Positions 13,109 through 33,195 are shown, numbered from the stretch's first letter. The stretch is 64,000 nt of DNA from Bacillota bacterium (GCA_029550965.1 JAKPGJ010000012.1:215-64214), one strand, 5' to 3'. The notes: generated by a model from the sequence alone, not told the origin. Program-made: numbers and translations.

Positions 13109-14116
13109 TTGAACACAGTAGTTTTGGGCAGAACCGGCATTCAGGCAAATAAGAACGGCTTCGGCGCACTGCCGATTCAACGAATAAGCCGTGACGAAGC
13201 GGACTATCTGCTGAAAAAAGCGTACGACTGCGGCGTCAATTTTTTCGATACCGCGCGGTTTTATACCGACAGCGAGGAAAAAATCGGGTTCGCGCTCAGC
13301 GGCGTGCGGGACAGGATATTCATCGCGACCAAATCAATGGCGGCAAAGCCGGACGAGCTTTGGAAAGAGCTGAAAACTTCGCTTGAAAACCTAAAGACCG
13401 ACTATATCGACGTCTATCAGTTCCATAACCCCAAGTTTTGTCCCAAACCCGGCGACGGAACCGGGCTGTACGAGGTCATGCTCGAAGCGAAGGAAAAAGG
13501 CATGATTCGGCATATCGGCATCACCAATCACCGCTTGAAAATAGCGGTCGAAGCGGTCGAATCCGGCTTATACGAAACCGTACAGTTCCCGTTCAGTTAC
13601 CTTTCGACCGAAGAAGAGCGGGATCTGGTTCGGCTGTGCGCGGAAAAAAACGTCGGCTTTATCGCGATGAAGGCGTTGTCCGGCGGTCTGATTACCAATT
13701 CGGCGGCGGCTTTTGCCTACCTTGCGCAGTTTGACAACGTGCTGCCGATTTGGGGCATACAGCGGGAAAAAGAACTCGACGAATTTTTATCGTTCATGCA
13801 GAACCCGCCGGTTTTGGACGAAAAACTGAAAGCCGTCATCGAAAAAGACCGCGCCGAACTGATGGGCGAGTTCTGCAGGGGCTGCGGCTACTGCCTGCCC
13901 TGCCCGGCGGAAATCGAGATTCCGACCGCCGCGCGGATGTCGCTGATGATCCGGCGCGCTCCGGTTTCGGTGTATATCAACGAAGAATGGATTGCGAAAA
14001 TGAAAAAAATCGACAACTGCATTCGCTGCAATCACTGCAAGGAGCATTGTCCTTACGGGCTGGACACACCGGAACTGTTAAGAAAGAACTGGCTTGACTA
14101 TCAACAGTTTATATAA
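13109..14116 (+). CDS. Aldo/keto reductase with a C-terminal 4Fe-4S ferredoxin-type domain
   Basis: AKR-like N-terminus (LGRTGIQANKNGFGALP, DTARFYTDSE) plus CRGCGYCLPCP and CIRCNHCKEHCP cysteine motifs. Confidence 0.8.
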   Translation: MNTVVLGRTGIQANKNGFGALPIQRISRDEADYLLKKAYDCGVNFFDTARFYTDSEEKIGFALSGVRDRIFIATKSMAAKPDELWKELKTSLENLKTDYIDVYQFHNPKFCPKPGDGTGLYEVMLEAKEKGMIRHIGITNHRLKIAVEAVESGLYETVQFPFSYLSTEEERDLVRLCAEKNVGFIAMKALSGGLITNSAAAFAYLAQFDNVLPIWGIQREKELDEFLSFMQNPPVLDEKLKAVIEKDRAELMGEFCRGCGYCLPCPAEIEIPTAARMSLMIRRAPVSVYINEEWIAKMKKIDNCIRCNHCKEHCPYGLDTPELLRKNWLDYQQFI

Positions 14117-16051: not shown

Positions 16052-17620
16052 ATGAATTTATCTGTTCTGTTGACCGGAGCTTTAATGGCTCTTTCTTTGC
16101 TTATACTCTTTTTGCTGCTTTTCTTTCACAATACAAAACACATCATTCGCAGCAAGCGTTTGCTGGAACTGCTGCTGATATCGGCGTTGATTTATATTTT
16201 CGGATACGTTCTCGAACTGACGGCAAACGTCGAGTCGCAGAAGATCTTTTACAACCATTTTCAATATATCGGATTGGTTATGATCGCTCCGATCTGGTAT
16301 TTGATTTCCGTACGCTTTTCGCACCTGGAAGGCAAATGGCAAAAGCTAAAACCGCTTCTCTTCGTCATTCCGGTAATCGCGTTAATCGGGAATTTCACCC
16401 ATACTTCCAATCAGTACTTCTATCAATCGCATATCTATTCCATCACCAACAGCGGCTTACACGTCATCCTGTACGAAAAAGGGGTCCTGTATTTCGTCCA
16501 CAACGCGTACCAGTCCGTTTTGGTGGCGCTTTCCGCGCTGAACTATTACAACGTGTATAAAACGGCCTCGGGTATGCGTCGAAAGCAGGCCGCCGTTTTG
16601 CTGGGGCTGAGCATACTCGGCTTCCTGACGGTCGCAAGCTGCCATTTCTCGTACTTTACGAGCAATTTTGACAGCGCGACGCTTTTTATGGGAGCTTCTG
16701 CTTTTATTCTGCTGCTGACGTTGTTCAAATATCGGCTGTTTGACCTGCTTCCGGCCGCGTATATGAAGGTGTTTCAATCGATCGACACGCCGATTCTAAT
16801 TTTGGATGACGCGAAAACCATTATCGAATACAATGCCGCGGCGGTAAATGTGTTCGGAAACAGTCTGAGAAAGTTCAGGAAAGTATCCGAAGCGTTTGCA
16901 GACGATACGGAACTGCTGAACGCTCTCGACAACAATCAAAGCTGTATTATCAACCGGACAGTGGACGGCAGGCAGATGTATTTTTCCACGAAACTGATAA
17001 AGCTGGATAAAAAGATTAAGGAATACACCAATGAATATGGCTATCTTTTGACCTTCGCGAACGAAACCGAGCATGTCAACAAAGTCCTCATGCTCGAGAA
17101 CGCGGCTTTTATCGACCCGCTGACGGAAGTTTACAACCGCAGGTACTTCTTTGAAAAAGCCAGTCAGGCGATCGAAGACGCGAAAAAAGGCGAATCCGAG
17201 TTTTCGCTGATTATGCTTGATATCGACCGGTTCAAAAGCGTCAACGACACGTTCGGGCATGTATGCGGCGATTTCGTGCTGAAAAAGGTTTGCGCCGTGA
17301 TGCAGGAGCACATCACCAGCGCGGACATGGCGGCGCGTTTCGGCGGGGAGGAGTTTATCATGCTGCTGCGCGGCGCTGATTTCGACCAGGCGACGGAGAC
17401 CGCCGAGCGGATATGCCGCGGCATCCGCGAGCAGAAGATTTTGTACGAGGAAGAAACCATCGCGGTTTCGGTCAGCGTCGGCGTGTTCACGCCCGAATTT
17501 CCGCTGCCCGCCTTCGCCACGCTGGACAAGCTGATCGCCGCCGTTGACAATTGCCTGTACAACGCCAAAAAGGAAGGCGGCGACCGTGTTTACGGCGCAA
17601 ACGGAGCGGTCCATGTTTGA
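16052..17620 (+). CDS. Diguanylate cyclase (GGDEF) with an N-terminal 7TM sensor-like domain
   Basis: About 230 aa of polytopic membrane region, a linker, then a GGDEF domain (DIDRFKSVNDTFGH, RFGGEEFIMLL). Confidence 0.88.
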   Translation: MNLSVLLTGALMALSLLILFLLLFFHNTKHIIRSKRLLELLLISALIYIFGYVLELTANVESQKIFYNHFQYIGLVMIAPIWYLISVRFSHLEGKWQKLKPLLFVIPVIALIGNFTHTSNQYFYQSHIYSITNSGLHVILYEKGVLYFVHNAYQSVLVALSALNYYNVYKTASGMRRKQAAVLLGLSILGFLTVASCHFSYFTSNFDSATLFMGASAFILLLTLFKYRLFDLLPAAYMKVFQSIDTPILILDDAKTIIEYNAAAVNVFGNSLRKFRKVSEAFADDTELLNALDNNQSCIINRTVDGRQMYFSTKLIKLDKKIKEYTNEYGYLLTFANETEHVNKVLMLENAAFIDPLTEVYNRRYFFEKASQAIEDAKKGESEFSLIMLDIDRFKSVNDTFGHVCGDFVLKKVCAVMQEHITSADMAARFGGEEFIMLLRGADFDQATETAERICRGIREQKILYEEETIAVSVSVGVFTPEFPLPAFATLDKLIAAVDNCLYNAKKEGGDRVYGANGAVHV

Positions 17621-21460: not shown

Positions 21461-21508
21461 CACCCTGAACTGTGTTCGCGTTGCGATACGTTCAGGGTGT
21501 GTTTTTTT
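21461..21508. terminator. Bidirectional terminator between the convergent anti-sigma and GNAT genes
   Basis: CACCCTGAAC (21461-21470) pairs with GTTCAGGGTG (21490-21499). There is a T-run on the plus strand and an A/T-rich tract on the other side. Confidence 0.7.
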
Positions 21509-21515
21509 GTTAATA

Positions 21516-21992
21516 TTACAATAGCATTTCCAGCGTTCGCTTCTGTTCCTTCATGCCGAGATTTTCGTAGAAGCGCCGCGCGCCGTCGTTGCCCGCCCAG
21601 ACGTTCAGCGTGATGTTGCGGCATCCCTGTTCGCGGGCGTAAGCGCGGGCGCGCTCGAACAGCATTTTGCCGATGCCTTTACCGCGCTGCGATTCGTCCA
21701 CGCACAAATCGTCGATATACAGCGTTTTGCCGTCTTGCATGATGGCGTGATCTTTATACTCGCTCAGCATGCAGAATATGTAGCCGACCGCGACGTCGTC
21801 CTTGTCCGCGGCGACGAAGATGGTAACCTTGGGGTCGCATAATAAGTCTTTCAGGTCGTTTTCGTTGTACTTCTTTGAGTTCGCTTTAAAAAGGTCCGGG
21901 CGCGCGTTGTTGTGAATCGCCGCGACCTGCTCAAGAAGGGTTATCAGGCGCGGAATATCCTTCTCGCTCGCTTTTCTTATCTGGATGCGCAA
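21516..21992 (-). CDS. GNAT-family N-acetyltransferase
   Basis: Motif A QRGKGIGKMLFERARAYA. TTG start preceded by GGAAGGAAG. Confidence 0.85.
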   Translation of the reverse strand: MRIQIRKASEKDIPRLITLLEQVAAIHNNARPDLFKANSKKYNENDLKDLLCDPKVTIFVAADKDDVAVGYIFCMLSEYKDHAIMQDGKTLYIDDLCVDESQRGKGIGKMLFERARAYAREQGCRNITLNVWAGNDGARRFYENLGMKEQKRTLEMLL

Positions 21993-22151
21993 AACACCAC
22001 TTCCTTCCGCAAGTCATTTTAGTCTTGGCAGAAAGATTTGTCAAGGCCGAACAATTTTGTCCGATATGAGTTTTTCTGTCATATTTCACGGCTGATTTCA
22101 ATATAACATTATATAAGGCAGAGAATCGAAATCGGAAAGGAGCGGGTCCGA

Positions 22152-22610
22152 ATGAAGAAGCTGATTGCGGTCGGCAACCGGTTTATGACCGACGACGGAA
22201 TCGCGATCGCCGTAACCGAGCACATGCGGGACACGATGGAGGAACTCGGATATGACGTGACGATATGCGAAACCGATGACAAAAGCTGTTTTTTCTCCCT
22301 CAACGAAGATGATTTTATCGTCATTTTAGACGCGCTTTATACGAACGACACGCCGGGAAGCATCAAGACATACGAGCTTTCGGAAGTGCTGTCGGCGCCT
22401 TCCTGCTGCGGAAGCCAGCACGAGTTGAGCCTGATTGAGCTGATGAAGCTGTATGGCCGCAATTATAAAGGGTACTTAATCGGCATTGAGGTTGCCGACG
22501 TCTGCTACGGCGAGGAAATAAGCCCGGTTTTGTCGCAGAAGTTTGAGAACATATGCTCCGCCGTTGAGGATTTGCTCGCAAAATTCAATTCGCTGATTAA
22601 GGTGGAGTAA
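22152..22610 (+). CDS. [NiFe]-hydrogenase maturation endopeptidase (HyaD/HybD/HoxM family)
   Basis: N-terminus KKLIAVGNRFMTDDGIAIAV, plus ILDAL and GSQHELS, matching the metal-binding Asp/Asp/His pattern of this family. Confidence 0.85.
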   Translation: MKKLIAVGNRFMTDDGIAIAVTEHMRDTMEELGYDVTICETDDKSCFFSLNEDDFIVILDALYTNDTPGSIKTYELSEVLSAPSCCGSQHELSLIELMKLYGRNYKGYLIGIEVADVCYGEEISPVLSQKFENICSAVEDLLAKFNSLIKVE

Positions 22611-22626
22611 TGAAAGGGTTTTTTCC

Positions 22627-22905
22627 ATGCACGATTCATTTTTGGTAATGGATATTTACGACGCAGTGCTGGACCTTTGCCGGCAGTATTCCATCGTAAA
22701 GCTGACCGAACTGGTGGTTTCCGTCCATCAAGACAGCCAAATCACAAAAGAGAGCATTTTGGAGCAGTTTGTGTCCAGAAACAGCAACATCGTCGGCGAC
22801 TGGACGCAGATTGCGGTTGAGAAAAAGGAAACCGAGAAGTTCAAGGTAAAAATCGAGCATATCTTCGGCGACCAGGACCCGGACATCTGGAAAACCGACG
22901 CATAG
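22627..22905 (+). CDS. HypA-like nickel-metallochaperone N-domain protein lacking the CxxC zinc module
   Basis: It starts MHD (compare the MHE nickel-binding motif of HypA) and has the HypA-like pattern KLTELVVSVHQDSQITKESILEQF. It is 92 aa with a single Cys and no CxxC...CxxC. Confidence 0.55.
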   Translation: MHDSFLVMDIYDAVLDLCRQYSIVKLTELVVSVHQDSQITKESILEQFVSRNSNIVGDWTQIAVEKKETEKFKVKIEHIFGDQDPDIWKTDA

Positions 22906-22944
22906 TACGGTCCATTCACTTCAGGAAGAAAGCAGGATGATGGT

Positions 22945-23460
22945 ATGCGGTATTCATTCGGGGATTTTCTTGTGAATATGGTAAAGGAAATCAAATCGGA
23001 CGTCGAACTGCTCGGCTCGAACGCCTGCAAGAGCAAATGGGAAGTGCTCCGGCAGCTGCGGGACAGGGTATCTACGCTTGAAAGCGCGGTCGAGGTCATA
23101 AACCGCGAATACGATTTGCAGGTGCAGGCGGTTCCGAAAGGTGAAAAAAACGCGCCGGAAGCGCAGGAAACGCGCGCGCAAACGACAGGTTCCGCCGAGC
23201 GCGCGCCCGCCGCAAAAGAAGCCGCATCGGAGCCGCTGAAAGTGTTTTCTAAGGAAGAACTCGCGCAGTGCACGGGCAAAGACGGAAAACCGGCGCTGGT
23301 CGCCATCAACGGACTGGTTTACGACGTGTCCGATCATCCCGCGTTCGCCGCCGGAACCCATTTCGGCGTCAGCTGCGGCAAAGACGTCACCGAAACCTTC
23401 GTGCGGATGCACGGGGACGACAGGTTTAAACAGCTCAAGCTTGTCGGCAAACTGGCGTAA
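22945..23460 (+). CDS. Soluble protein with a C-terminal cytochrome b5-like heme/steroid-binding domain
   Basis: FSKEELAQCTGKDGKPALVAINGLVYDVSDHPAFAAGTHFGVSCGKDVTETFVRMHG matches the b5 fold pattern (x-EL-x-gkdg-x-vai-G-x-VYDV-x-HP...GkD-T-F...H). The N-terminal ~100 aa are coiled-coil or low-complexity. No TM helix. Confidence 0.6.
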   Translation: MRYSFGDFLVNMVKEIKSDVELLGSNACKSKWEVLRQLRDRVSTLESAVEVINREYDLQVQAVPKGEKNAPEAQETRAQTTGSAERAPAAKEAASEPLKVFSKEELAQCTGKDGKPALVAINGLVYDVSDHPAFAAGTHFGVSCGKDVTETFVRMHGDDRFKQLKLVGKLA

Positions 23461-23473
23461 AGGAGACTTTTTT

Positions 23474-24352
23474 ATGCAGCAAAACTGCCCGGGATACTCC
23501 GACCGCAGAAAATACATATCGGAACTGGTCAACGCGGCGATCAATCAGGCCGAAACGACCGGCAAAAAGAAAAAACTGGTCTGGCTGGAGCTGAACGGAT
23601 GCTCCGGCAATATTATTTCGCTTCTTGACGGGTTCGAGCCGAATCTGGAATACATGATGACGGCGATGACCGACTTTATCTATTGCAACAGTCTGGTCGC
23701 AAAAGAAGGAAGCGCTGCGATGGAACAGCTTTTCAGCGTGATCGGAAGCGACTTTATACTGGCGGTGGAAGGCGCGGTTTCCAAACGGGAAAACGGTCTT
23801 TACAACATCATCGGGCGCGTGAACGGCACAGCGGTCACGGGGCTGAGCGCCGTCACCCGGCTCGGGGAAGCCGCCGAATATGTCATCGCGGTGGGCGCCT
23901 GCGCGTCGCACGGCGGGGTCTCGGGCGCAAAACCCAATCCGTCTGAATGCGTGGGCGTGCAGAAGGTGTTGAAACGCCGGGTAATCAACTGCCCGGGCTG
24001 TCCCTGCAATCCGGACTGGTTTCTCGGCACGCTGGCGTATATTCTGCTGTACGGCGAGCCGCCTTTGGACAGCAGGAACCGCCCGCAGATGTTTTACAGC
24101 ATTACGATTCACGACCGCTGCCCGCGCAGGTCCTATTTCGATAACAACATTTTCGCGGAAAAGCTGGGCGATCAAACATGCATGTTCAAGCTCGGCTGCC
24201 GCGGGCCGATCACACCGATTGACTGCCCGGTGCGGATGTGGAACAACCACGTCAACTGGCCGGTCAAATGCGATACGCCCTGCATCGGCTGCGCGCAGTT
24301 CGGTTTCCCCGACGCGATGGAGCCGTTTATAACCTACAACACTACGCGCTAA
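23474..24352 (+). CDS. [NiFe]-hydrogenase small subunit
   Basis: LVWLELNGCSGN, GACASHGGV, NCPGCPCNPDW, HDRCPRR, CMFKLGCRGP, DCP and WPVKCDTPCIGC align with proximal, distal and medial Fe-S cluster motifs. ATG 23474 lies after AAGGAG. The track ORF starts at 23441. Confidence 0.9.
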   Translation: MQQNCPGYSDRRKYISELVNAAINQAETTGKKKKLVWLELNGCSGNIISLLDGFEPNLEYMMTAMTDFIYCNSLVAKEGSAAMEQLFSVIGSDFILAVEGAVSKRENGLYNIIGRVNGTAVTGLSAVTRLGEAAEYVIAVGACASHGGVSGAKPNPSECVGVQKVLKRRVINCPGCPCNPDWFLGTLAYILLYGEPPLDSRNRPQMFYSITIHDRCPRRSYFDNNIFAEKLGDQTCMFKLGCRGPITPIDCPVRMWNNHVNWPVKCDTPCIGCAQFGFPDAMEPFITYNTTR

Positions 24353-24364
24353 AGAGGGTTTGCC

Positions 24365-25768
24365 ATGCCGCAGAAAATTACAATCAATCCGGTAACGCGA
24401 ATCAGCGGATTTATGGAAATCAACGCCGATGTGGACAATGGCGCTGTCGTAAACGCAAAAACAAAAGGGCTGATGTTCCGCGGCTTTGAGCAGATGCTGG
24501 TCGGAAGAAACCCTTTTGACGCGGTATATTTTACCGAGCGGATTTGCGGAATCTGCTCGACCGCGCACTCAATGGCTTCGACGCTCGCGCTCGAAAGCGT
24601 GATGGGCATTGAGGTGACCGAACAGGGAAGGTATCTGCGCGACATTATTCACGGAAGCGAGTTTTTGCAGAACCATTTGCGGCACTTTTTCCAGATGACC
24701 ATCCCCGATTATGTGAAAATGCCCCAAAACTTCCCGCTTTTAAATGCGCGGCATAACGATTACAGGCTGCCCAAAGAAATCAACGACCGAATTGTGAAAA
24801 ACTATTTCGATTCGCTGGAGCTGAGCCGCTCGGCGCATCAGATGGTCGCGATTTTCGGCGGCAAAGCGCCGCATAATCACGGTATTTTTATCGGCGGTGC
24901 GACCATGCAGGCGACGTCCGACAAGGTTATCAGCATGCTCTCGATTTTAGATTCCATCCAGACCTTTATCGAGGAGAAAATGCTTCCGGACGTTTACGAC
25001 ATCGCGAAATATTACCCCGAATACTACCAAATCGGCGGTGGTTACGGCAATCTGTTAAGCTACGGCATATTCGACCATTATAAAGAGCTGGGGACTTTGT
25101 ATGTCGATCCGCTGGTCTACACCAACGGCGATATAACTCCGTTCAACCCGGACCGCATCGCCGAGGTCAGCGATTACTCGTGGTGTAAAAATCTTGAGCC
25201 GCAGGATTTGTATCATCAGCCGATCGAGGATACGAAAGATTTAAAGGCATACACCTGGGTCAAAGCGCCGCGCTACGAGAACAAGCCGTTCGAGGTCGGA
25301 CCGCTTGCCCGCCAGTGGCTCAGCGGCGAGTACCGAAACGGCATTTCCGCGATGGACAGAACCATTGCCCGCGTGCTGGAGGCGAAGAAAATCTGCGCTG
25401 TTTTGAAAACGCTTTTAGAGAACCTGCGTCCCGGCATCAACTTCCAGCAGGTTTACGAAGTGTCGGTCGGCGGGAAGGGCAGCGGATTGATTGATACGAC
25501 CAGAGGCGCGCTCGGTCATTGGGTTTCGGTGGAAAACAGGCAGATTTTAACCTATCAGATCATCACGCCGTCCGCATGGAACTTTTGCGCGCGGGACGAT
25601 GAGCATCCCGGCGTCGCCGAGCGGGCGCTTATCGGCACGCCGGTTCAGGATGTAAAAGACCCGGTGGAAATCGGCAGGGTCATCCGCTCTTTTGACCCCT
25701 GCATCTCCTGCGCGACGCATGTTTATACCGCCGGGCAGTATGTAAAGACATTGGAAGTCAATGTATAA
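24365..25768 (+). CDS. [NiFe]-hydrogenase large subunit
   Basis: N-terminal RICGICSTAH and C-terminal DPCISCATH active-site cysteine pairs. A 15-aa extension follows the His and is expected to be cleaved by the protease. Confidence 0.92.
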   Translation: MPQKITINPVTRISGFMEINADVDNGAVVNAKTKGLMFRGFEQMLVGRNPFDAVYFTERICGICSTAHSMASTLALESVMGIEVTEQGRYLRDIIHGSEFLQNHLRHFFQMTIPDYVKMPQNFPLLNARHNDYRLPKEINDRIVKNYFDSLELSRSAHQMVAIFGGKAPHNHGIFIGGATMQATSDKVISMLSILDSIQTFIEEKMLPDVYDIAKYYPEYYQIGGGYGNLLSYGIFDHYKELGTLYVDPLVYTNGDITPFNPDRIAEVSDYSWCKNLEPQDLYHQPIEDTKDLKAYTWVKAPRYENKPFEVGPLARQWLSGEYRNGISAMDRTIARVLEAKKICAVLKTLLENLRPGINFQQVYEVSVGGKGSGLIDTTRGALGHWVSVENRQILTYQIITPSAWNFCARDDEHPGVAERALIGTPVQDVKDPVEIGRVIRSFDPCISCATHVYTAGQYVKTLEVNV

Positions 25769-25790
25769 GCGGGCAAAAAAAGCATAATAA

Positions 25791-25819
25791 AAACCTCCGT
25801 CAAAGGAGGTTTTATTTTT
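25791..25819 (+). terminator. Rho-independent terminator of the hydrogenase operon
   Basis: AAACCTCC (25791-25798) pairs with GGAGGTTT (25805-25812), followed by TATTTTT. Confidence 0.75.
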
Positions 25820-25886
25820 ATATTGATTTTATCTTGAAATATTGTATAATAAATTTAACAGTTGCAGATTAGGGGGCGGCTTTTTT

Positions 25887-26354
25887 ATGCTTTTATCTAT
25901 TATGAACAGATTCCCCGAGAAAGATCGAAAAAGGTTTTTAAAATTTACAGCTCACTTTATGCTCGCGGATTTGATTTTACTGATCCTTGCGCTCATCATG
26001 ATATGGGTTAGCAAAAGTGAAAGCGATATGCTGTATAGAATCGCCGGGAAGATATTCTTTATCGTCAAAATACTCTCCGGCATTATTGCTTTGTACTTTT
26101 TGCTTGTTGGCGCCGTTACGTTTATAGACGAGTTCAACGCAAACGGCAGGAAGTACCTGTTTCGATTTCTATTAAACTTTTTTATATGTTATCCGCTGAT
26201 GATTCTAATCGCTTATCTGCCGAGTAAGGAATGGCATTTGGCAGAAAGCGCAGCGATAAGTTTCCTGCTTATATTATTGCCCGTGATGCGGAGAGGCGCA
26301 AAAATAATTCTTCAGTACGGCCTATCCGCGCAAAACGAGCAGGACGCCGTTTAA
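25887..26354 (+). CDS. Hypothetical membrane protein (about 4 TM helices), AT-rich
   Basis: AGGGGG RBS upstream of ATG 25887. Hydrophobic segments, with no recognisable motif. Confidence 0.5.
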   Translation: MLLSIMNRFPEKDRKRFLKFTAHFMLADLILLILALIMIWVSKSESDMLYRIAGKIFFIVKILSGIIALYFLLVGAVTFIDEFNANGRKYLFRFLLNFFICYPLMILIAYLPSKEWHLAESAAISFLLILLPVMRRGAKIILQYGLSAQNEQDAV

Positions 26355-28286: not shown

Positions 28287-29588
28287 ATGAAATCTGTTTG
28301 GAGCGAAAGCGTTGATTTGCCAAAGTTTCCGAAACTGGAAGGGGATAAGTCCTGCGACGTCTTAGTCATCGGCGGCGGGCTTGCGGGAATTCTGTGCGCC
28401 TACTTTTTGAAAGAAGCGGGCGTGGACTGCCTGCTCGTAGAGGGCGAGACCATCTGCAGCGGCGTGACCAAAAACACCACCGCGAAGATTACCGCCCAGC
28501 ACGGGCTGATTTACGCAAAGCTGATTCAAAACTTCGGCGTCCAAAAAGCGAAGCAGTACCTTTCGGCTAACCTCTGGGCGGTCGGGAAGTACCGCGAACT
28601 GAGCGAAGTGTTCCAATGCGATTTTGAAGAAAAGAACGCTTATGTTTACACGCTGACCGATAGAAAGAAAATAGAAGACGAGGTCAGCGCGGTCAACAGG
28701 CTGGGTTTCGGCGCGGAACTGGTCGAAAAAGTGCCGCTTCCGCTGGACGTAAAAGCGGCGGTTCGGTTCCCGAATCAGGCGCAGTTCAATCCGCTCAAGT
28801 TTGCCGCCGGCATCGCGGGCGGTCTGAACATCCGCGAGCGCACTTTTATTCAAAAAGTAAAGGGCAATGTCGCTTATACGGATACCGGCAATATCAAAGC
28901 GGAAAAAATCATTATCGCCACGCATTTTCCGTTTATCAATCGGCGCGGGCTGTATTTTATCAAGCTGTATCAGAGCCGCTCGTACACCATCGCTTTGGAG
29001 AACGCGCCGGATGTCGGCGGCATGTACGTGGACGAAGCGGAAAACGGCATGTCGTTCCGCAACTACCAGAACCTTCTGCTCATCGGCGGCGGCGACCACA
29101 GAACCGGCAAGCCGGGCGGCAGGTATCAGGAACTGCGCAATTTCGCAAGAACGCGCTACCGCGGCGCGGTGGAGCAGTATTCCTGGGCGACGCAGGACTG
29201 CATGAGCCTGGACGGCATTCCGTATATCGGCAGGTATTCGCCCAACACGCCCAATCTGTTCGTCGCGACCGGATTCAACAAATGGGGCATGACCTCGTCG
29301 ATGGTCAGCGCAAGGATTCTGCGCGATATGGTTCTGGAGCAAAAGAACCAGTTTGCGGACGTTTTTGCGCCCGACCGCTCGATTTTTACAAAGCAGCTGT
29401 TTGTCAATCTGAGCGATACGGTCGTCAGCCTGCTGACGCCCTCCACCAAGCGCTGCACGCACCTCGGCTGCTCGCTGAAGTGGAACGAGGTCGAGCACAC
29501 CTGGGAATGTCCCTGCCACGGCTCGCGGTATGACGAAAAGGGCAACCTGATCGACAACCCGGCGATGCGGAACGCGGACGTGAAATGA
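28287..29588 (+). CDS. FAD-dependent oxidoreductase with a C-terminal Rieske [2Fe-2S] domain (YhfW-like)
   Basis: DVLVIGGGLAGI dinucleotide-binding motif and the Rieske motif CTHLGCSL...CPCHGSRYD. Confidence 0.85.
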   Translation: MKSVWSESVDLPKFPKLEGDKSCDVLVIGGGLAGILCAYFLKEAGVDCLLVEGETICSGVTKNTTAKITAQHGLIYAKLIQNFGVQKAKQYLSANLWAVGKYRELSEVFQCDFEEKNAYVYTLTDRKKIEDEVSAVNRLGFGAELVEKVPLPLDVKAAVRFPNQAQFNPLKFAAGIAGGLNIRERTFIQKVKGNVAYTDTGNIKAEKIIIATHFPFINRRGLYFIKLYQSRSYTIALENAPDVGGMYVDEAENGMSFRNYQNLLLIGGGDHRTGKPGGRYQELRNFARTRYRGAVEQYSWATQDCMSLDGIPYIGRYSPNTPNLFVATGFNKWGMTSSMVSARILRDMVLEQKNQFADVFAPDRSIFTKQLFVNLSDTVVSLLTPSTKRCTHLGCSLKWNEVEHTWECPCHGSRYDEKGNLIDNPAMRNADVK

Positions 29589-29755: not shown

Positions 29756-30715
29756 TTATTCTTTTTTCTTGTTTTTGCTTACGAAATAGATGACAACCGC
29801 AACGACAGCGACTACAACGGCTGCGATGACAACATAAATCCACCAGTTGCTGCTATCTTCGGTTTCGGTGGATACGCTGCTTGCGGAGCTGTCGCTCTTC
29901 GAGCTGGTTACGTCGGATTTCGCTTCGCTGGAAGTAGAAGAAGCTTCACTCTTAGCGGAAGACGTATCGCTGCTTGCAGCGGAGGAAGCGGCAGAAGAAG
30001 TTGCTACGGAAGAAGCTGCAGAGGATGCGGCGCTCGACTCGAACTTAGTAGGCTCGGGTCTGACTTTGCCGAGATCCTTCACGTCTGCAGTTGAGCTTAC
30101 GTAGAACTTGTAAATCGTAAGTTTGCCGCCGACTTTGCCGACCATATCGAAATCAAGGTCGCAGAAGCGATGCATATGATTGTCAAATACACATGAGGAG
30201 CCTTTATCAACAGTAACGTATGTACCTAAATCCCAAACACCGAAGCCTTCTCCGCTGACTTTACGATGTTTTGCGTATGTTGAATCGCTTTCCATACTGT
30301 TCAGGTAAAGGTCTGCAAGCGTGTTGGCGGTTGCTTTGTCTTTACGGGTATAATGCGCTACGAATCTGCTGAACGAAACGCCGTCGGCAGATGCGTAATC
30401 GTAAACGACAAAGGCGCCTTTGGTGATGTCAAAAGCATCGCCGCTGTAAATTGTGCCGCCGCTTTCTTCCTGATAAACGTTTTCAGCAAAAATCATTTTG
30501 ACGTTTGCCGACGTAGCGGTGAGCGTAAACGTAACCGAACCGTCGCTGTTCTCTTCCATCGTGCAGCCGGTTAACTGCAGTTTGCCCATCGTGTTGTCTT
30601 TGGTGGGCATGAGGTTTACTAAAACTGTGTCTTCGGCCGACGTAGAGATTGCGAACTGCGCTACGATCATCATGAGCGCAACGGCCAACAAAGCGATTTG
30701 CTTGATGTGTTTCAT
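29756..30715 (-). CDS. Cell-surface protein of unknown function: signal peptide, ~210-aa globular domain, Ser/Ala-rich stalk, C-terminal TM anchor
   Basis: N-terminus MKHIKQIALLAVALMMIVAQFAISTSA, a stalk of SSAASSAASSVATSSAASS..., and the anchor WWIYVVIAAVVVAVVAVVIYFVSKNKKKE. Confidence 0.65.
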   Translation of the reverse strand: MKHIKQIALLAVALMMIVAQFAISTSAEDTVLVNLMPTKDNTMGKLQLTGCTMEENSDGSVTFTLTATSANVKMIFAENVYQEESGGTIYSGDAFDITKGAFVVYDYASADGVSFSRFVAHYTRKDKATANTLADLYLNSMESDSTYAKHRKVSGEGFGVWDLGTYVTVDKGSSCVFDNHMHRFCDLDFDMVGKVGGKLTIYKFYVSSTADVKDLGKVRPEPTKFESSAASSAASSVATSSAASSAASSDTSSAKSEASSTSSEAKSDVTSSKSDSSASSVSTETEDSSNWWIYVVIAAVVVAVVAVVIYFVSKNKKKE

Positions 30716-30748: not shown

Positions 30749-31582
30749 TTATATTATACTAAATTTCAAACTAATGTCAAGAGATTTAACAGAATGTGTC
30801 AAACTTCCGATTGAAATCAAATCCACACCGGTTTTCGCAACCTCGGAAAGGTCCTTTTCGCCCATATTGCCGCTTGCCTCGACGATCGCTCTGCCGCCGA
30901 TGATTTGCACGGCCTTCGCCATATCCTCGTTGGACATATTGTCCAGCATGATAATATCCGCTTTCGCCTCGAGCGCTTCATAAAGCTGGACGAAGTTTTC
31001 CACCTCGACTTCGATTTTTAAGGTATGCGGACAGTGTCTCCTCGCCGCTTCCACGGCATTTTTAATCGAGCCGGCCGCGGCGATATGATTGTCCTTTATC
31101 AAAACGCCGTCCGAAAGATTGAAGCGGTGGTTTACGCCGCCGCCGACTCTGACGGCGTATTTGTCCAGCAGCCGAAGCCCGGGCATGGTTTTCCGCGTAT
31201 CCGCGATATGCGCTTTGGTGCCCGCAACCGCTTTGACGGCTTTCGCGGTCGCGGTCGCGATGCCGCTCGCGCGCTGCATTAGGTTGAGCGCGGTTCTCTC
31301 GCCGGTCAGGATGGTGCGGGCGTTTCCGCTGATTTCGGCGATGACGTCGCCTTTCTTTATCGAGTCGCCGTCTTTGAAATATTTTACCATCTCAAAATCG
31401 CCGCCGACAAGCTCGAACGTGCGCTGCGCGATGTCAATGCCGCACAAAACGCCGTCGTCCTTGGCGATAAACCTGCCAGAAACTCGTCTGTCCGCCGGAA
31501 CAATGCTGTTCGTGGTGATGTCGCCGAACGGAGCGTCTTCCTCAAGCGACATCTGGATTATGCGGTCAAATATGGTTTTCAT
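30749..31582 (-). CDS. nadC: Nicotinate-nucleotide diphosphorylase (carboxylating)
   Basis: Full-length match to the QPRTase pattern (ERTALNLMQRASGIAT, DTRKT.PGLR, VGGG.NHR, IMLDNM). Confidence 0.93.
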   Translation of the reverse strand: MKTIFDRIIQMSLEEDAPFGDITTNSIVPADRRVSGRFIAKDDGVLCGIDIAQRTFELVGGDFEMVKYFKDGDSIKKGDVIAEISGNARTILTGERTALNLMQRASGIATATAKAVKAVAGTKAHIADTRKTMPGLRLLDKYAVRVGGGVNHRFNLSDGVLIKDNHIAAAGSIKNAVEAARRHCPHTLKIEVEVENFVQLYEALEAKADIIMLDNMSNEDMAKAVQIIGGRAIVEASGNMGEKDLSEVAKTGVDLISIGSLTHSVKSLDISLKFSII

Positions 31583-31603
31583 AGAGCGTTACCCCTCTCT
31601 TTC

Positions 31604-33154
31604 TTACTGCTCCTCGTCAGTCAGGTAGTGCGCGCCCACGCTCTTTTTGCGCGCGATGGCCGCTTCCACGACTTTCCGGGAAACCTGAAGCATATTGTAC
31701 ACTTTGAACTCGTAGGGGAGAGACAGATGTGCGTCCTCGATCTGTTCGGCAAGCGCGTCCAGTTCCGCCTGCGCGGTGCGCAGGCCTTCCCGGCTCCGGA
31801 TGGGTCCGGCGTAAGCGGTCATAATCTGCTTGATTTTCGCTTCAAGCGCAGAGTAGAAGCCGATATCCAGTTTTTTATGATAAATCTTCGATTCTACTTT
31901 TATCTTCTTGTTTTCGTTATAGCTGGGCACGATATTGCCGTTGATGTATCGCGCGCACCTGCGTCCGAACACAAGACATTCGAGCAGCGAGTTGGAAGCG
32001 AGCCTGTTCGCGCCGTGTATGCCGGTGCGCGCCGCCTCGCCGACGCAGTAGAGCCCTTTGATGTTGGTTCTGCCGTCAATATCGGTCTTGACGCCGCCCA
32101 TGATGTAATGCTGCGCCGGGCGGACCGGAATCCTGTCTTTGGTCAGATGAATGCCTCTGCTCTCGCACTCGTTGAAGATGGTCGGAAAACGCTCTTTGAA
32201 GAACTCCGTCGTCATGGACGAAACATCCAGCCATACGTTTTGATCGCCGGTTCTTTCCATTTCAGCGAGCACGCAGCGGGTTACGATGTCGCGCGGCGCG
32301 AGGTCGGCAAGCTCGTGCTTGCCCTGCATAAACGCTTCGCCCCTGCTGTTGCGCAGAATTCCGCCTTCGCCTCGGACCGCTTCGGAAATCAGGAACAGTC
32401 TGGACGCTTTTCCGTCGGAAATCAGCGTGGTGGGATGGAACTGAATCATTTCCATATCCTGCAGAACCGCGCCGGCCCGGTACGCAGCGGCAATTCCGTC
32501 GCCGACAGAGCCGAGCGGGCTGGTCGTGTACTGATAAATCTGACCGCAGCCGCCGGTCGCGATGATGACGTTTCTGCTGCGCAGCACCTTGAAATCGTCC
32601 CCGACCTTTACCAGCACGCCGCAGACGCCGTTGTCGTCGGTCAGGAGGTCTACCAAAAAGGTTTCAAAGAAAAAGTGGAGGTTATCCTTCTGCATCGCGA
32701 TTTTGCTGAGCTGAATGGTCGTCTCCCTGCCGGTCGCGTCGCCGCCGCAGTGCACGATACGGCGGGTTCTGTGACCGCCCTCGCGCGTAATCTGCAGGTC
32801 GCCGTCCGCGTTGACGTCGAACGGAACCTTCATGTCAATCAGCGTTCGGATGTTCTCCGGACCTTCCTCGACAAGCACCTTGACGGCTTCCGGGTCGCAA
32901 AGACCGGCGCCCGCTTTTATTGTGTCGTTGATGTGCATGATATAGGTGTCTTCGGGCGACATCACCGCGGCGATACCGCCCTGCGCGAGGTAGGAGTTGC
33001 TCTCGTCGATATTCGCTTTGGTCACGACGGCGCACTGAAGCGCGGAATCCAGATGGAGCGCCGAATACAGCCCCGCGATTCCGCTTCCTATGATGACGAC
33101 GTCAAAGTCGTATACGCTCATTTCTTCATTGATCGAAAATAAATATCTGCGCAT
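31604..33154 (-). CDS. nadB: L-aspartate oxidase
   Basis: DVVIIGSGIAGL FAD motif and the fumarate reductase/succinate dehydrogenase flavoprotein fold (HCGGD, RGEGG). ATG 33154 lies after GAGAGAAG. The track ORF starts at TTG 33160. Confidence 0.92.
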   Translation of the reverse strand: MRRYLFSINEEMSVYDFDVVIIGSGIAGLYSALHLDSALQCAVVTKANIDESNSYLAQGGIAAVMSPEDTYIMHINDTIKAGAGLCDPEAVKVLVEEGPENIRTLIDMKVPFDVNADGDLQITREGGHRTRRIVHCGGDATGRETTIQLSKIAMQKDNLHFFFETFLVDLLTDDNGVCGVLVKVGDDFKVLRSRNVIIATGGCGQIYQYTTSPLGSVGDGIAAAYRAGAVLQDMEMIQFHPTTLISDGKASRLFLISEAVRGEGGILRNSRGEAFMQGKHELADLAPRDIVTRCVLAEMERTGDQNVWLDVSSMTTEFFKERFPTIFNECESRGIHLTKDRIPVRPAQHYIMGGVKTDIDGRTNIKGLYCVGEAARTGIHGANRLASNSLLECLVFGRRCARYINGNIVPSYNENKKIKVESKIYHKKLDIGFYSALEAKIKQIMTAYAGPIRSREGLRTAQAELDALAEQIEDAHLSLPYEFKVYNMLQVSRKVVEAAIARKKSVGAHYLTDEEQ

Positions 33155-33195
33155 TGACAATTCTTCTCTCTAAATTGATATTTAAGGAATCTATT

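What the first reader, a model, noticed from the sequence alone, without database searches (positions are those of the whole stretch)
22152..25768. Compact, atypically organised [NiFe]-hydrogenase cluster with a cytochrome-b5-like protein in place of a membrane cytochrome b
Five co-directional, tightly spaced genes sit in front of one strong terminator. The order is maturation protease, a zinc-less HypA-like protein, a 171-aa soluble protein with a cytochrome b5-like domain, the small subunit, then the large subunit.

Classical uptake operons run small-large-cytochrome b-protease. Here the accessory genes come first. The window contains no membrane cytochrome b, no HypBCDEF, and no diaphorase or other Group 3/4 partner subunits.

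The large subunit (467 aa) is much shorter than typical Group 1/2 enzymes. The small subunit nevertheless keeps the three-cluster layout with a His-ligated distal cluster.

Together with the motif substitutions reported separately, this suggests a poorly characterised or unclassified cytoplasmic hydrogenase lineage with a heme-b5-type electron partner.
Basis: partly seen in the sequence, partly recalled or inferred. Interest (0 to 1): 0.75.

Follow-up and report, generated by a model that had tools for sequence, protein, structure and literature searches.

The report
Cytoplasmic NiFe hydrogenase with b5-type partner
This is a real, transcribed five-gene cluster for a cytoplasmic nickel-iron hydrogenase whose neighbouring gene encodes a small soluble heme-type (cytochrome b5-like) protein, but it is an ordinary member of a widespread and already catalogued, though biochemically unstudied, lineage of Firmicutes enzymes.

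Summary
Five tightly spaced co-directional genes at 22152-25768 encode a maturation protease, a zinc-less HypA-like protein, a soluble cytochrome-b5-domain protein, and the small and large [NiFe]-hydrogenase subunits, followed by a terminator hairpin.

The cluster is not an oddity. Relatives of the large subunit (60-69% identical) are common in Clostridia and Bacilli. In all 76 related loci with complete upstream sequence, a b5-like gene sits directly before the small subunit. Six loci have the window's exact gene order. Clostridium acetobutylicum pSOL1 (CA_P0141-0145), which a 2022 paper reports as a HydDB Group 1a reference, has all five homologues in another order.

The lineage has no Tat signal. 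The nearest Tat-bearing sister cluster instead carries a membrane cytochrome b.

The b5 domain is closest to the archaeal cytochrome b5M structures, which bind heme b through two histidines. Both histidines are invariant here.

All five genes are under purifying selection (dN/dS 0.09-0.16) and appear in anaerobic-digester metatranscriptomes.

The enzyme is cytoplasmic and has a conserved b5-type gene. It is catalogued under Group 1a rather than unclassified, and the b5 neighbour has been noted before. No biochemical study was found.

The parts
22152..22610 (+). Hydrogenase maturation endopeptidase (152 aa). It is expected to cleave the C-terminal tail of the large subunit.
   Evidence: TIGR00072 79.7 bits (cutoff 47.45) and Pfam HycI 25 bits (cutoff 23). 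Homologues occur in 74 related loci. dN/dS against the L090 relative is 0.12.
22627..22905 (+). Zinc-less HypA-like protein (92 aa). It starts with MHD and has no CxxC motif. Putative nickel chaperone.
   Evidence: No Pfam or NCBIfam hit. The AF2 model has pLDDT 77, and the Foldseek top 10 hits are all HypA (3A43, 5YY0, 6G81, 5YXY, 2KDX, 5AUP, 5AUN). An HMM built only from zinc-less members hits canonical zinc-containing HypA at E 3e-4 to 8e-3; hhalign gives E 3.5e-5 over columns 1-66. A relative has a sub-threshold Pfam HypA hit. It is homologous to C. acetobutylicum CA_P0145. dN/dS is 0.13.
22945..23460 (+). Soluble cytochrome b5M-type protein (171 aa). Layout: N-terminal helical hairpin (about residues 5-55), disordered linker (59-95), b5 domain (99-170) with His139 and His156.
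   Evidence: Pfam Cyt-b5 30.8 bits. The family profile matches 6NZX at E 9e-23 and 6VZ6 at E 2e-18. The top Foldseek hit is 6NZX with TM 0.78. His139 and His156 are invariant in 78 of 78 sequences. No transmembrane helix. The gene lies directly upstream of the small subunit in 76 loci. dN/dS is 0.16.
23474..24352 (+). [NiFe]-hydrogenase small subunit (292 aa). It has no Tat signal and a three-cluster layout with a proximal C-x-x-N motif.
   Evidence: Pfam Oxidored_q6 and NiFe_hyd_SSU_C; TIGR00391 202 bits (cutoff 179.5). PDB alignment to D. gigas 1FRV maps Cys54 to Cys17 and Asn57 to Cys20, in numbering of the 303-aa ORF. The N-terminal hydrophobicity maximum is 0.48, against 1.81 in a true Tat signal.
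24365..25768 (+). [NiFe]-hydrogenase large subunit (467 aa). It carries RICGICSTAH and DPCISCATH motifs, followed by a 15-residue C-terminal tail.
   Evidence: PF00374 at E 5e-101. The best NCBIfam model, NF033181, scores 465.8 bits, below its cutoff of 600. The best PDB matches are the [NiFeSe] hydrogenases at E 3e-99. Relatives of 62-69% identity are common in Clostridia and Bacilli.
25790..25813 (+). Intrinsic terminator hairpin that ends the transcription unit.
   Evidence: 9-bp stem followed by a T-run. Folding energy -14.2 kcal/mol, z = -2.66. Metatranscriptome contig depth falls to about zero at 25650-26115 in three of four runs.

Best explanation
**What it is.** The five genes form one transcription unit for a cytoplasmic [NiFe]-hydrogenase of a widespread Bacillota lineage that is currently lumped into HydDB Group 1a.

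**What is shown.**
- The five gene identities.
- Absence of a Tat signal.
- Family-wide linkage of a b5M-type gene to the small and large subunit genes.
- Purifying selection on all five genes.
- Transcripts in anaerobic digesters.

**Inferred catalytic path.**
- H2 is oxidised at the Ni-Fe site (Cys61/Cys64/Cys446/Cys449).
- Electrons pass through three clusters of the small subunit. These are a proximal cluster with three Cys plus Asn46 or the nearby Cys178, a medial 3-Cys cluster, and a His-ligated distal cluster.
- They then reach a heme b held by His139 and His156 in the b5M domain.
- That domain sits on a flexible linker of about 40 residues, attached to a helical hairpin that probably docks on the enzyme.
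- The heme would hand electrons to an unidentified cytoplasmic acceptor.
- In effect the soluble b5M would replace the membrane cytochrome b of the exported sister enzymes.

**Inferred maturation.**
- The zinc-less HypA-like protein delivers nickel.
- The protease removes the 15-residue tail after His452.
- HypCDEF must be encoded elsewhere in the genome.
For: - **Gene identities:**
- **Linkage:** the b5 gene is directly upstream of the small and large subunit genes in 76 of 76 informative loci across Clostridia and Bacilli. All five homologues are present in C. acetobutylicum pSOL1.
- **Location:** no Tat motif in 73 small subunits and no hydrophobic h-region.
- **Sister cluster:** the nearest Tat-bearing sister has small subunit (Tat), large subunit, then Ni_hydr_CYTB. 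Its large subunit is 44-45% identical to the window's.
- **Heme binding:** the b5 domain is closest to the heme-binding archaeal cytb5M structures 6NZX and 6VZ6. Their axial ligands are His42 and His61 (bioRxiv 10.1101/2021.11.30.470528). His139 aligns with His42, and His156 lies one residue from His61. Both are invariant.
- **Solubility:** no transmembrane helix.
- **HypA-like evidence:**
- **Selection:** dN/dS 0.09-0.16 for all five genes. Synteny without hypFCDE is retained in relatives L089, L090 and L091.
- **Expression:** metatranscriptome contigs cover the cluster and bridge the gene junctions.
Against: - No experiment shows heme binding or electron transfer for any member of the family.
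- Gene order does not separate 'subunit' from 'maturation factor'. In C. acetobutylicum the b5 gene lies between the protease and the HypA-like gene, and in Bacilli between hypE and the small subunit gene.
- Many Clostridia are thought to lack protoheme synthesis. PMC9431212 found only partial pathways in Clostridium acetogens.
- The window's b5 copy departs from near-invariant family residues: Tyr118 to Leu, Trp134 to Phe, Cys155 to Met.
- The AF2 confidence for the b5 domain is only moderate (pLDDT 58-78).
- The final electron acceptor and the direction of catalysis are unknown.
- hypCDEF were not found in the 64 kb window.
- The RNA evidence rests on contigs that may contain carried-over DNA.
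Confidence: 0.6

Rival explanations
1. The b5-like protein is an accessory or maturation factor for the hydrogenase, not its electron acceptor. It could act in small-subunit cluster assembly, in proofreading that replaces the Tat-linked chaperones, or in ligand or metal handling.
For: In every arrangement the gene borders maturation genes. It lies between the HypA-like gene and the small subunit gene in the window, between the protease and the HypA-like gene in C. acetobutylicum, and after hypE in Bacilli. A Cys-His pair (Cys155-His156) is conserved in 77 of 78 sequences and could bind a metal. Some Tat-less relatives have only the small and large subunit genes and no b5 gene (L092; PMC9431212).
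Against: The domain is closest to proven heme-binding cytb5M proteins, and both axial histidines are invariant. The sister clade has a cytochrome b at the corresponding place. No known [NiFe] maturation step uses a b5 fold (general knowledge).
Confidence: 0.2
2. The b5-like domain does not carry heme in these anaerobes. Like eukaryotic MAPR proteins, it would bind another ligand and act as a sensor or regulator of the hydrogenase.
For: The family also matches the MAPR proteins 1T0G, 1J03 and 4X8Y. Heme biosynthesis appears incomplete in clostridial hosts (PMC9431212). The window copy has substitutions at pocket-like conserved residues.
Against: The His-His pair is invariant, whereas MAPR proteins lack it and use Tyr instead. 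The Bacilli that carry the same module make heme. Matches to cytb5M are far stronger than to MAPR (E 9e-23 against 1e-10 to 4e-5).
Confidence: 0.1
3. The cluster is a non-functional remnant, because the hypCDEF genes needed to build the active site are missing nearby.
For: No Hyp genes other than the HypA-like one lie within 64 kb. Most Clostridia relatives keep hypFCDE between the HypA-like gene and the b5 gene. His2 of the HypA-like protein is lost in near relatives. C. acetobutylicum hupSL was not expressed in chemostats (PMC4669385).
Against: All five ORFs are intact, with dN/dS of 0.09-0.16. The same five-gene layout is retained in relatives down to about 60% b5 identity and in complete genomes such as L. 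indolis. Transcripts were detected. All catalytic and cluster ligands are present.
Confidence: 0.05
4. The enzyme is a classical exported Group 1a hydrogenase with an unusual signal peptide. The window's small subunit does contain an RR dipeptide (DRRKYIS).
For: Sequence affinity to periplasmic [NiFeSe] enzymes. An RR dipeptide is present in the N-terminus. PMC9431212 raises the possibility of variant Tat signals.
Against: The RR is not conserved in relatives, which have a single R or K. There is no hydrophobic h-region: 0.48 against 1.81 in a true Tat signal. No membrane anchor and no cytochrome c or b gene is present. The partner protein has no signal peptide.
Confidence: 0.03

Closest known systems
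Clostridium acetobutylicum pSOL1 [NiFe]-hydrogenase cluster CA_P0141-0145 (large subunit WP_010890826.1, reported as a HydDB Group 1a reference)
   Same: It has homologues of all five window genes: a Tat-less small subunit with the CSGN motif, a short large subunit, the protease, a 'cytochrome b5 domain-containing protein', and an 86-aa protein starting with MHD.
   Different: The order is small subunit, large subunit, protease, b5, HypA-like, followed by a truncated HypF-like gene. The large subunit is only 47% identical. The cluster is plasmid-borne.
Lacrimispora indolis and other Lachnospiraceae clusters (L004, L007, L009, L029, L030, L048)
   Same: Identical order: protease, HypA-like, b5, small subunit, large subunit. 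Large subunits are 62-69% identical.
   Different: Different genomic neighbours, and some are flanked by recombinase genes. These copies keep the family-consensus b5 residues that the window's copy has changed.
Periplasmic [NiFeSe] hydrogenase of Desulfovibrio vulgaris and Desulfomicrobium baculatum (Group 1a; PDB 5JSU, 1CC1)
   Same: Best solved-structure match (E 3e-99). Short large subunit. Same overall small and large subunit fold and a His-ligated distal cluster.
   Different: Only 39% identity. The window enzyme has Cys where those have selenocysteine, and it has no Tat signal or lipid anchor. The proximal motif is C-x-x-N rather than C-x-x-C. The medial cluster has three Cys with Pro retained, unlike the all-[4Fe-4S] arrangement I recall for [NiFeSe] enzymes. 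The partner there is cytochrome c3 (from general knowledge); here it is b5M.
Tat-exported clusters of spore-forming Bacillota: small subunit, large subunit, cytochrome b (L093, L094)
   Same: Nearest Tat-bearing sister of the small subunit (45% identity). The large subunit is also short (468-478 aa). The second proximal ligand position is also not Cys (CTGD).
   Different: It has a Tat signal (RREFL), a C-terminal extension of about 150 aa on the small subunit, and a membrane Ni_hydr_CYTB gene instead of b5M.
Archaeal cytochrome b5M (Hadesarchaea 6NZX; Methanococcoides burtonii 6VZ6)
   Same: Same MAPR-like b5 fold (TM 0.78, 36-39% identity). Both axial histidines are conserved.
   Different: Those are stand-alone 78-aa domains. 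The cytb5M papers do not mention hydrogenase at all. The window protein adds an N-terminal helical hairpin and a long linker.
HypA nickel metallochaperone (T. kodakarensis 3A43; H. pylori 6G81)
   Same: An N-terminal M-H-(D/E) start and the alpha/beta nickel-domain fold. The gene sits next to the protease or the hyp genes.
   Different: It lacks the whole zinc-finger domain (no CxxC motif). It fails the Pfam HypA threshold. No HypB gene accompanies it in the Clostridia loci.

Membership tests
[NiFe]-hydrogenase, Group 1-type heterodimer | Large subunit in PF00374 with an N-terminal RxCGxCxxxH motif and a C-terminal DPCxxCxxH motif | tested here: met
   PF00374 at E 5e-101. RICGICSTAH and DPCISCATH are present and invariant in the family alignment.
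[NiFe]-hydrogenase, Group 1-type heterodimer | Small subunit with a three-cluster layout including a His-ligated distal cluster | tested here: met
   NiFe_hyd_SSU_C at E 1e-31; TIGR00391 202 bits against a cutoff of 179.5. His213/Cys216/Cys236/Cys242 and Cys251/Cys270/Cys273 are invariant. One proximal ligand, Cys20 in D. gigas numbering, is Asn.
HydDB Group 1a (periplasmic respiratory uptake [NiFe]/[NiFeSe]) | Classifier or phylogenetic placement with Group 1a references | not testable with these tools
   HydDB could not be run. Indirect evidence: the best PDB and NCBIfam matches are [NiFeSe] Group 1a enzymes. The 47%-identical C. acetobutylicum homologue is reported as a HydDB Group 1a reference (PMC9431212).
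HydDB Group 1a (periplasmic respiratory uptake [NiFe]/[NiFeSe]) | Tat signal peptide on the small subunit (export to the periplasm) | tested here: not met
   No RRxFxK motif with an h-region in the window or in any of 73 relatives. Maximum hydrophobicity is 0.48, against 1.81 in a true Tat signal.
NCBIfam NiFeSe hydrogenase large subunit (NF033181, NF045518) | Score above the curated equivalog cutoff | tested here: not met
   465.8 bits against 600, and 434.2 bits against 780. The residue at the selenocysteine position is Cys.
Cytochrome b5M (MAPR-like prokaryotic cytochrome b5) | b5 fold that is closest to 6NZX and 6VZ6 rather than to classical b5 | tested here: met
   Pfam Cyt-b5 30.8 bits against 23.7. 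The profile matches 6NZX at 9e-23 and 6VZ6 at 2e-18, while classical b5 matches only at E 2e-3 or weaker. The top Foldseek hit is 6NZX with TM 0.78.
Cytochrome b5M (MAPR-like prokaryotic cytochrome b5) | Two axial histidine ligands, equivalent to His42 and His61 of 6NZX | tested here: met
   His139 aligns with His42. His156 lies one residue from His61 in an ungapped HMMER alignment. Both are invariant in 78 of 78 sequences.
Cytochrome b5M (MAPR-like prokaryotic cytochrome b5) | Binds heme b | not testable with these tools
   This needs spectroscopy on the expressed protein.
HypA nickel metallochaperone (PF01155) | N-terminal Met-His-Glu nickel-binding motif and alpha/beta nickel-domain fold | tested here: inconclusive
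   The window protein starts with MHD. The Foldseek top 10 hits are all HypA, but E is only 0.01-0.1. hhalign gives 72% probability and E 3.5e-5. His2 is replaced by Q, D or E in near relatives.
HypA nickel metallochaperone (PF01155) | Zinc-binding domain with two CxxC motifs | tested here: not met
   There is no CxxC motif in the window protein or in 22 zinc-less relatives. Canonical HypA proteins in the Bacilli loci have two.
HypA nickel metallochaperone (PF01155) | Pfam gathering score | tested here: not met
   No hit for the window protein. A relative scores 17.1 bits against 28.9.
Hydrogenase maturation endopeptidase (HycI/HybD) | Family model above cutoff, and a substrate with a C-terminal extension | tested here: met
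   TIGR00072 79.7 bits against 47.45; Pfam HycI 25 bits against 23. The large subunit has 15 residues after His452.

The most novel reading that the evidence does not exclude
The Tat-less, b5M-linked Bacillota enzymes, including this one and C. acetobutylicum CA_P0141-0145, may form a functionally distinct [NiFe] subgroup that is wrongly lumped into periplasmic Group 1a. They would be cytoplasmic hydrogenases whose physiological acceptor is a tethered soluble bis-His heme b protein. That would be the first b5-family redox partner of any hydrogenase. They would also have a non-canonical proximal cluster (Cys to Asn) and their own minimal nickel chaperone, a zinc-less HypA working without HypB.
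Probability: 0.45. Interest if true: 0.6.

Novelty: new member of a known kind. Interest (0 to 1): 0.4.

Why it matters
- **Scale of the lineage.** The window's cluster is itself routine, but its lineage is large. The large-subunit search returned 7,096 proteins at E <= 1e-30. Members occur in anaerobic digesters, gut-associated taxa such as Lachnospiraceae, solvent-producing clostridia and soil bacilli. No biochemical study of this lineage turned up in the papers searched.

- **Effect on H2 budgets.** Metagenomic surveys count these enzymes as 'Group 1a periplasmic respiratory uptake' hydrogenases. If they are really cytoplasmic and feed a soluble b5-type heme protein, H2 budgets and energy-conservation models for Clostridia and Bacilli would need a different entry.

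- **A possible missing HypA.** The zinc-less HypA-like gene is annotated as 'hypothetical' and matches no Pfam model. It may explain why HypA could not be found in several Clostridium acetogens (PMC9431212).

- **A spectroscopic target.** The family-wide replacement of one proximal-cluster cysteine by asparagine is a concrete target for spectroscopy.

Tried and rejected
1. **PDB profile search for the HypA-like family.** It returned only noise (E >= 0.18). Structure prediction followed by Foldseek was needed.

2. **Word-indexed homologue searches.** The b5 and 92-aa proteins gave only 8 and 11 hits, so the alignments used for AF2 were shallow. Wider families had to be collected from ORFs in the 84 related loci.

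3. **The 170-aa membrane ORF downstream (25842-26354) as a hidden membrane partner.** Rejected. It lies after the terminator with its own promoter-like site, has no Pfam hit, and is absent in the close relative L089.

4. **The FAD/Rieske oxidoreductase (28287-29588) as a linked acceptor.** Rejected. It neighbours the hydrogenase in only 2 of 84 loci. It is conserved downstream in the close relative L089, which is what shared ancestry would give.

5. **The RR dipeptide in the small-subunit N-terminus as a Tat motif.** Rejected.

6. **A tail-anchored b5.** High hydrophobicity near the C-terminus of some relatives turned out to be the last beta-strand of the domain.

7. **C-terminal extensions of sister small subunits.** They showed no Pfam domain.

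8. **Literature searches.** No biochemical work on the b5-linked enzymes was found. Only PMC9431212 mentions the neighbour.

Full report
**1. Checking the observation**

The stretch 22152-25768 holds five co-directional ORFs.
- 22152-22610 (152 aa) is a hydrogenase maturation protease. TIGR00072 scores 79.7 bits against a cutoff of 47.45, and Pfam HycI scores 25 against 23.
- 22627-22905 (92 aa) has no Pfam or NCBIfam hit.
- 22945-23460 (171 aa) has a Cyt-b5 domain at residues 102-170 (30.8 bits against a gathering score of 23.7).
- The small subunit carries Oxidored_q6 and NiFe_hyd_SSU_C.
- 24365-25768 (467 aa) is the large subunit (PF00374, E 5e-101).

The ORF listing starts the small subunit at a TTG at 23441. 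Independent gene calls on other contigs use the ATG at 23474, giving 292 aa. A GGAGAAAGGGGG stretch precedes that ATG.

The gaps between genes are 16, 39, 13 and 12 nt. A 9-bp hairpin followed by a T-run lies at 25790-25813. It folds at -14.2 kcal/mol with z = -2.66.

Pfam scans of all ORFs of at least 200 aa in the window found no membrane cytochrome b, no Hyp gene, no diaphorase and no Group 3/4 partner subunit. No window ORF is homologous to the HypF/C/D/E genes present in related loci. The one apparent match, 34358-34993, is a Sua5/TsaC-type protein.

**2. Which hydrogenase it is**

The best solved-structure matches of the large subunit are the periplasmic [NiFeSe] hydrogenases of Desulfovibrio vulgaris and Desulfomicrobium baculatum (E 3e-99). 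The best NCBIfam models are the NiFeSe families, but both score below their curated cutoffs (465.8 against 600, and 434 against 780).

The protein-database search returned 7,096 proteins at E <= 1e-30. The top 120 are 62-100% identical and 458-498 aa long. Those that carry names come from Clostridium aminobutyricum, Lacrimispora indolis, Petroclostridium, Pseudobacteroides, Dehalobacterium, Anaerotignum and similar genera. A scan of species-representative genomes added 80 loci from Clostridia and from Bacilli such as Lysinibacillus, Neobacillus, Halobacillus and Mesobacillus.

A length of 467 aa is therefore normal for this branch. It is short only when compared with Group 1b-1d enzymes.

Identity of the window's large subunit to other enzymes:

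| Compared with | Identity |
|---|---|
| Its own clade | 62-67% |
| C. acetobutylicum CA_P0142 | 47% |
| A Tat-exported sister (L093) | 44-45% |
| A Tat-less relative without a b5 gene (L092) | 41% |
| D. vulgaris [NiFeSe] | 39% |

**3. Gene neighbourhoods**

I called ORFs in 84 related loci and searched them with the five window proteins and with iterated HMMs.

A b5-like ORF lies directly upstream of the small and large subunit genes in 76 loci. Of the other eight, seven are cut by the contig end. The eighth, L071, is an orphan large subunit plus protease with no small subunit at all. The b5 gene is thus present in every informative locus.

| Gene order | Loci |
|---|---|
| b5, small, large, protease | 31 |
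| b5, small, large | 18 |
| protease, b5, small, large | 13 |
| protease, HypA-like, b5, small, large (the window's order) | 6 |

In the second group the protease and the HypA-like gene often sit about 6 kb upstream, before hypFCDE. The six loci with the window's order are L. indolis, Hungatella and other Lachnospiraceae.

Two exemplar clusters were annotated:
- Halobacillus: hypA (with zinc finger), hypB, hypF, hypC, hypD, hypE, b5, small, large, protease.
- A Lachnospiraceae genome: protease, HypA-like, hypF, (hypC), hypD, hypE, b5, small, large, with no hypB.

C. acetobutylicum pSOL1 has small subunit (CA_P0141), large subunit (0142), protease (0143), 'cytochrome b5 domain-containing protein' (0144) and an 86-aa hypothetical protein starting with MHD (0145). 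Each is a significant homologue of the corresponding window protein.

**4. Cytoplasmic location and small-subunit features**

None of the 73 full-length family small subunits has an RRxFxK motif.
- The window's N-terminus contains an RR dipeptide, but it is not conserved in relatives.
- It is followed by a polar stretch. The maximum 13-residue hydropathy is 0.48, against 1.81 for a genuine Tat signal in the sister enzyme.

All family members read G-C-(S/T/A)-G-N where standard enzymes have C-x-x-C. The second proximal-cluster cysteine (Cys20 in D. gigas numbering) is therefore asparagine. The Clostridia members have an extra Cys two residues after the last proximal ligand (C-P-C), whereas the Bacilli members have Val there.

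The distal His/Cys3 ligands and the three medial Cys are invariant. The Pro at the position corresponding to D. gigas Pro238 is retained in the window's small subunit. From general knowledge, this position distinguishes [3Fe-4S] from [4Fe-4S] medial clusters, so a [3Fe-4S]-type medial cluster is likely.

A full search of 50%-identity representatives shows how distinct the clade is.
- The whole clade collapses to one close representative (P0140, 61%).
- The only other Tat-less C-x-x-N sequences among the nearest relatives are P0141 and the C. acetobutylicum small subunit.
- The next representatives have Tat signals with C-x-x-D or C-x-x-N.
- Most of the rest have Tat signals and C-x-x-C.

**5. 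The sister cluster**

The nearest Tat-bearing small subunit, P0143, has an RREFL motif, a CTGD proximal motif and 447 aa. It lies in a cluster of small subunit, large subunit and Ni_hydr_CYTB in a spore-forming Bacillota genome. A more distant Tat-less relative, P0141, has only the small and large subunit genes.

This comparison is the strongest argument available here that the soluble b5 protein occupies the role of the membrane cytochrome b in a lineage that moved into the cytoplasm. It remains an inference from gene content.

**6. The b5-like protein**

- **Family features.** The proteins are soluble, with no transmembrane helix. They share a conserved N-terminal helical region, a low-complexity linker and a C-terminal domain of about 75 aa.
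- **Structure prediction.** AF2 with a shallow 7-sequence alignment gives helices at 5-23 and 31-55 (pLDDT 85-92), a disordered 59-95 segment, and a b5 domain at pLDDT 58-78.
- **Sequence matches.** A 25-sequence profile matches the archaeal 'cytochrome b5M' structures 6NZX (E 9e-23) and 6VZ6 (E 2e-18). It then matches MAPR proteins, and classical b5 only weakly.
- **Structural matches.** Foldseek ranks 6NZX first, with TM 0.78 and 39% identity.
- **Heme ligands.** Those proteins bind heme b with axial His42 and His61 (bioRxiv 10.1101/2021.11.30.470528). Family His139 aligns with His42. His156 lies one residue from His61 in an ungapped alignment. Both are invariant in 78 of 78 sequences.
- **Prior mention.** The word 'hydrogenase' does not occur in the main cytb5M paper.
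- **Window-specific changes.** The window's copy differs from the family at several near-invariant positions: Tyr118 to Leu, Trp134 to Phe, Cys155 to Met.

**7. The 92-aa protein**

It begins with MHD and has no CxxC motif.
- The AF2 model (pLDDT 77) finds only HypA structures among its ten best PDB matches. The E-values are weak (0.01-0.1) but the probabilities are near 1.
- An HMM built only from zinc-less members hits the canonical, zinc-finger-bearing HypA proteins of the Bacilli loci at E 3e-4 to 8e-3.
- hhalign aligns the two families from residue 1 to 66, with E 3.5e-5 and probability 72%.
- A close relative gives a sub-threshold Pfam HypA hit on profile positions 1-49.

I call it HypA-like rather than HypA, because the zinc domain and the Pfam threshold both fail.

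In the window's nearest relatives, His2 is replaced by Gln, Asp or Glu. This is unexplained.

**8. Whether the cluster is used**

- **Synteny.** Relatives L089, L090 and L091 keep the same five genes, without hypFCDE, between the same flanking genes.
- **Selection.** Nei-Gojobori dN/dS between the window and L090 is 0.12 for the protease, 0.13 for the HypA-like gene, 0.16 for b5, 0.09 for the small subunit and 0.15 for the large subunit.
- **Occurrence.** The sequence appears in anaerobic-digester, sludge and bioreactor metagenomes and in at least 24 digester metatranscriptome runs.
- **Transcripts.** Metatranscriptome contigs bridge the junction between the HypA-like and b5 genes and the junction between the small and large subunit genes. 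Depth falls to about zero just past the terminator in three of four runs.
- **Caveat.** These are contigs, and DNA carry-over cannot be excluded.

**9. What is already known**

Di Leonardo et al. 2022 (PMC9431212) classified the [NiFe] enzymes of eight Clostridium acetogens as HydDB Group 1a.
- They found no Tat signals.
- They found heme biosynthesis to be incomplete.
- They could not find HypA or HypB in five species.
- They cite C. acetobutylicum WP_010890826.1 as the HydDB best hit.

Yoo et al. 2015 (PMC4669385) found C. acetobutylicum hupSL unexpressed in chemostats. HydDB's own paper shows that Group 1a has already been split several times (PMC5037454).

I found no biochemical study of the b5-linked enzymes.

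**10. Verdict**

The cluster is real, intact, transcribed and under selection. It is a typical member of a large Bacillota lineage, not an oddity of this genome. The lineage has been catalogued and its b5 neighbour has been noticed.

It is not right that the lineage is unclassified or that the gene order is unusual.

The mechanism, in which H2 electrons pass through the three clusters to a tethered bis-His heme b and on to an unknown acceptor, is my best inference at about 0.6. A maturation or accessory role for the b5 protein is the main rival.

- The b5 linkage holds in 76 of 76 informative loci.
- The b5 domain is assigned to the b5M class, with invariant axial histidines.
- The sister lineage is Tat-exported and carries a cytochrome b.
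- One proximal-cluster cysteine is replaced by asparagine across the family.
- A zinc-less HypA-like gene is recognised.

Noticed in passing
window 23474-24352 (small subunit residues 43-46); also L001-L085: The second cysteine of the proximal-cluster CxxC motif is asparagine (G-C-S-G-N) in the window and in all 73 family small subunits, including C. acetobutylicum. The Clostridia members have an extra Cys in a C-P-C motif, while the Bacilli members have Val at that position. The fourth ligand of the proximal cluster, and therefore the cluster type, is unclear.
   Followed up: partly
window 22627-22905 and relatives P0133-P0139: His2 of the MHD start, the presumed nickel ligand of a HypA-like protein, is replaced by Asp, Gln or Glu in the window's nearest relatives. 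It is conserved in the wider clostridial family.
   Followed up: no
window 22945-23460: The window's b5 copy has the rare residue at several positions that are conserved in at least 74 of 78 family members: Tyr118 to Leu, Trp134 to Phe, Leu142 to Val, Cys155 to Met, Leu161 to Phe. The gene is nevertheless under purifying selection (dN/dS 0.16).
   Followed up: partly
window 4839-5498 and 5492-6595: Two overlapping ORFs together make up one ABC transporter. The first covers ABC_membrane profile positions 5-176. The second covers positions 186-273 plus the ATPase domain. This is either a frameshifted gene or a sequencing error.
   Followed up: no
window 16052-17620 and 54707-55828: Two paralogous membrane diguanylate cyclases, each with a 7TM HisKA_7TM domain followed by GGDEF.
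   Followed up: no
window 13109-14116: An aldo/keto reductase fused to a C-terminal 4Fe-4S dicluster domain.
   Followed up: no
L071 8001-9871: An orphan copy of the large subunit plus protease with no small subunit and no b5 gene upstream. Thiamine-type genes lie there instead.
   Followed up: partly
L002, L003 and L004, downstream of the large subunit: Resolvase or serine-recombinase genes lie immediately downstream of the hydrogenase cluster in an Eubacteriales genome and in L. indolis. This hints that the module is mobile.
   Followed up: no
window 21490-23120 (contig 3 of run X25): One metatranscriptome contig runs from inside the oppositely oriented GNAT gene (21516-21992, minus strand) into the hydrogenase cluster. 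It reflects either DNA carry-over or a transcript that starts upstream of the intergenic region.
   Followed up: no
window 29756-30715 (minus strand), next to nadC and nadB at 30749-33160: Downstream of nadB and nadC on the minus strand, a place where one might look for nadA, lies a 319-aa ORF. It has no Pfam hit at E <= 1e-5, and at E <= 0.001 only two matches below the curated cutoffs (RIFIN, EssA).
   Followed up: no
L085 6555-7973 (C. acetobutylicum CA_P0146): A 472-aa protein, annotated as 'Sua5/YciO/YrdC/YwlC family protein', follows the HypA-like gene. It is much shorter than the 770-785-aa HypF proteins of related loci, so it may be a truncated HypF relative.
   Followed up: no
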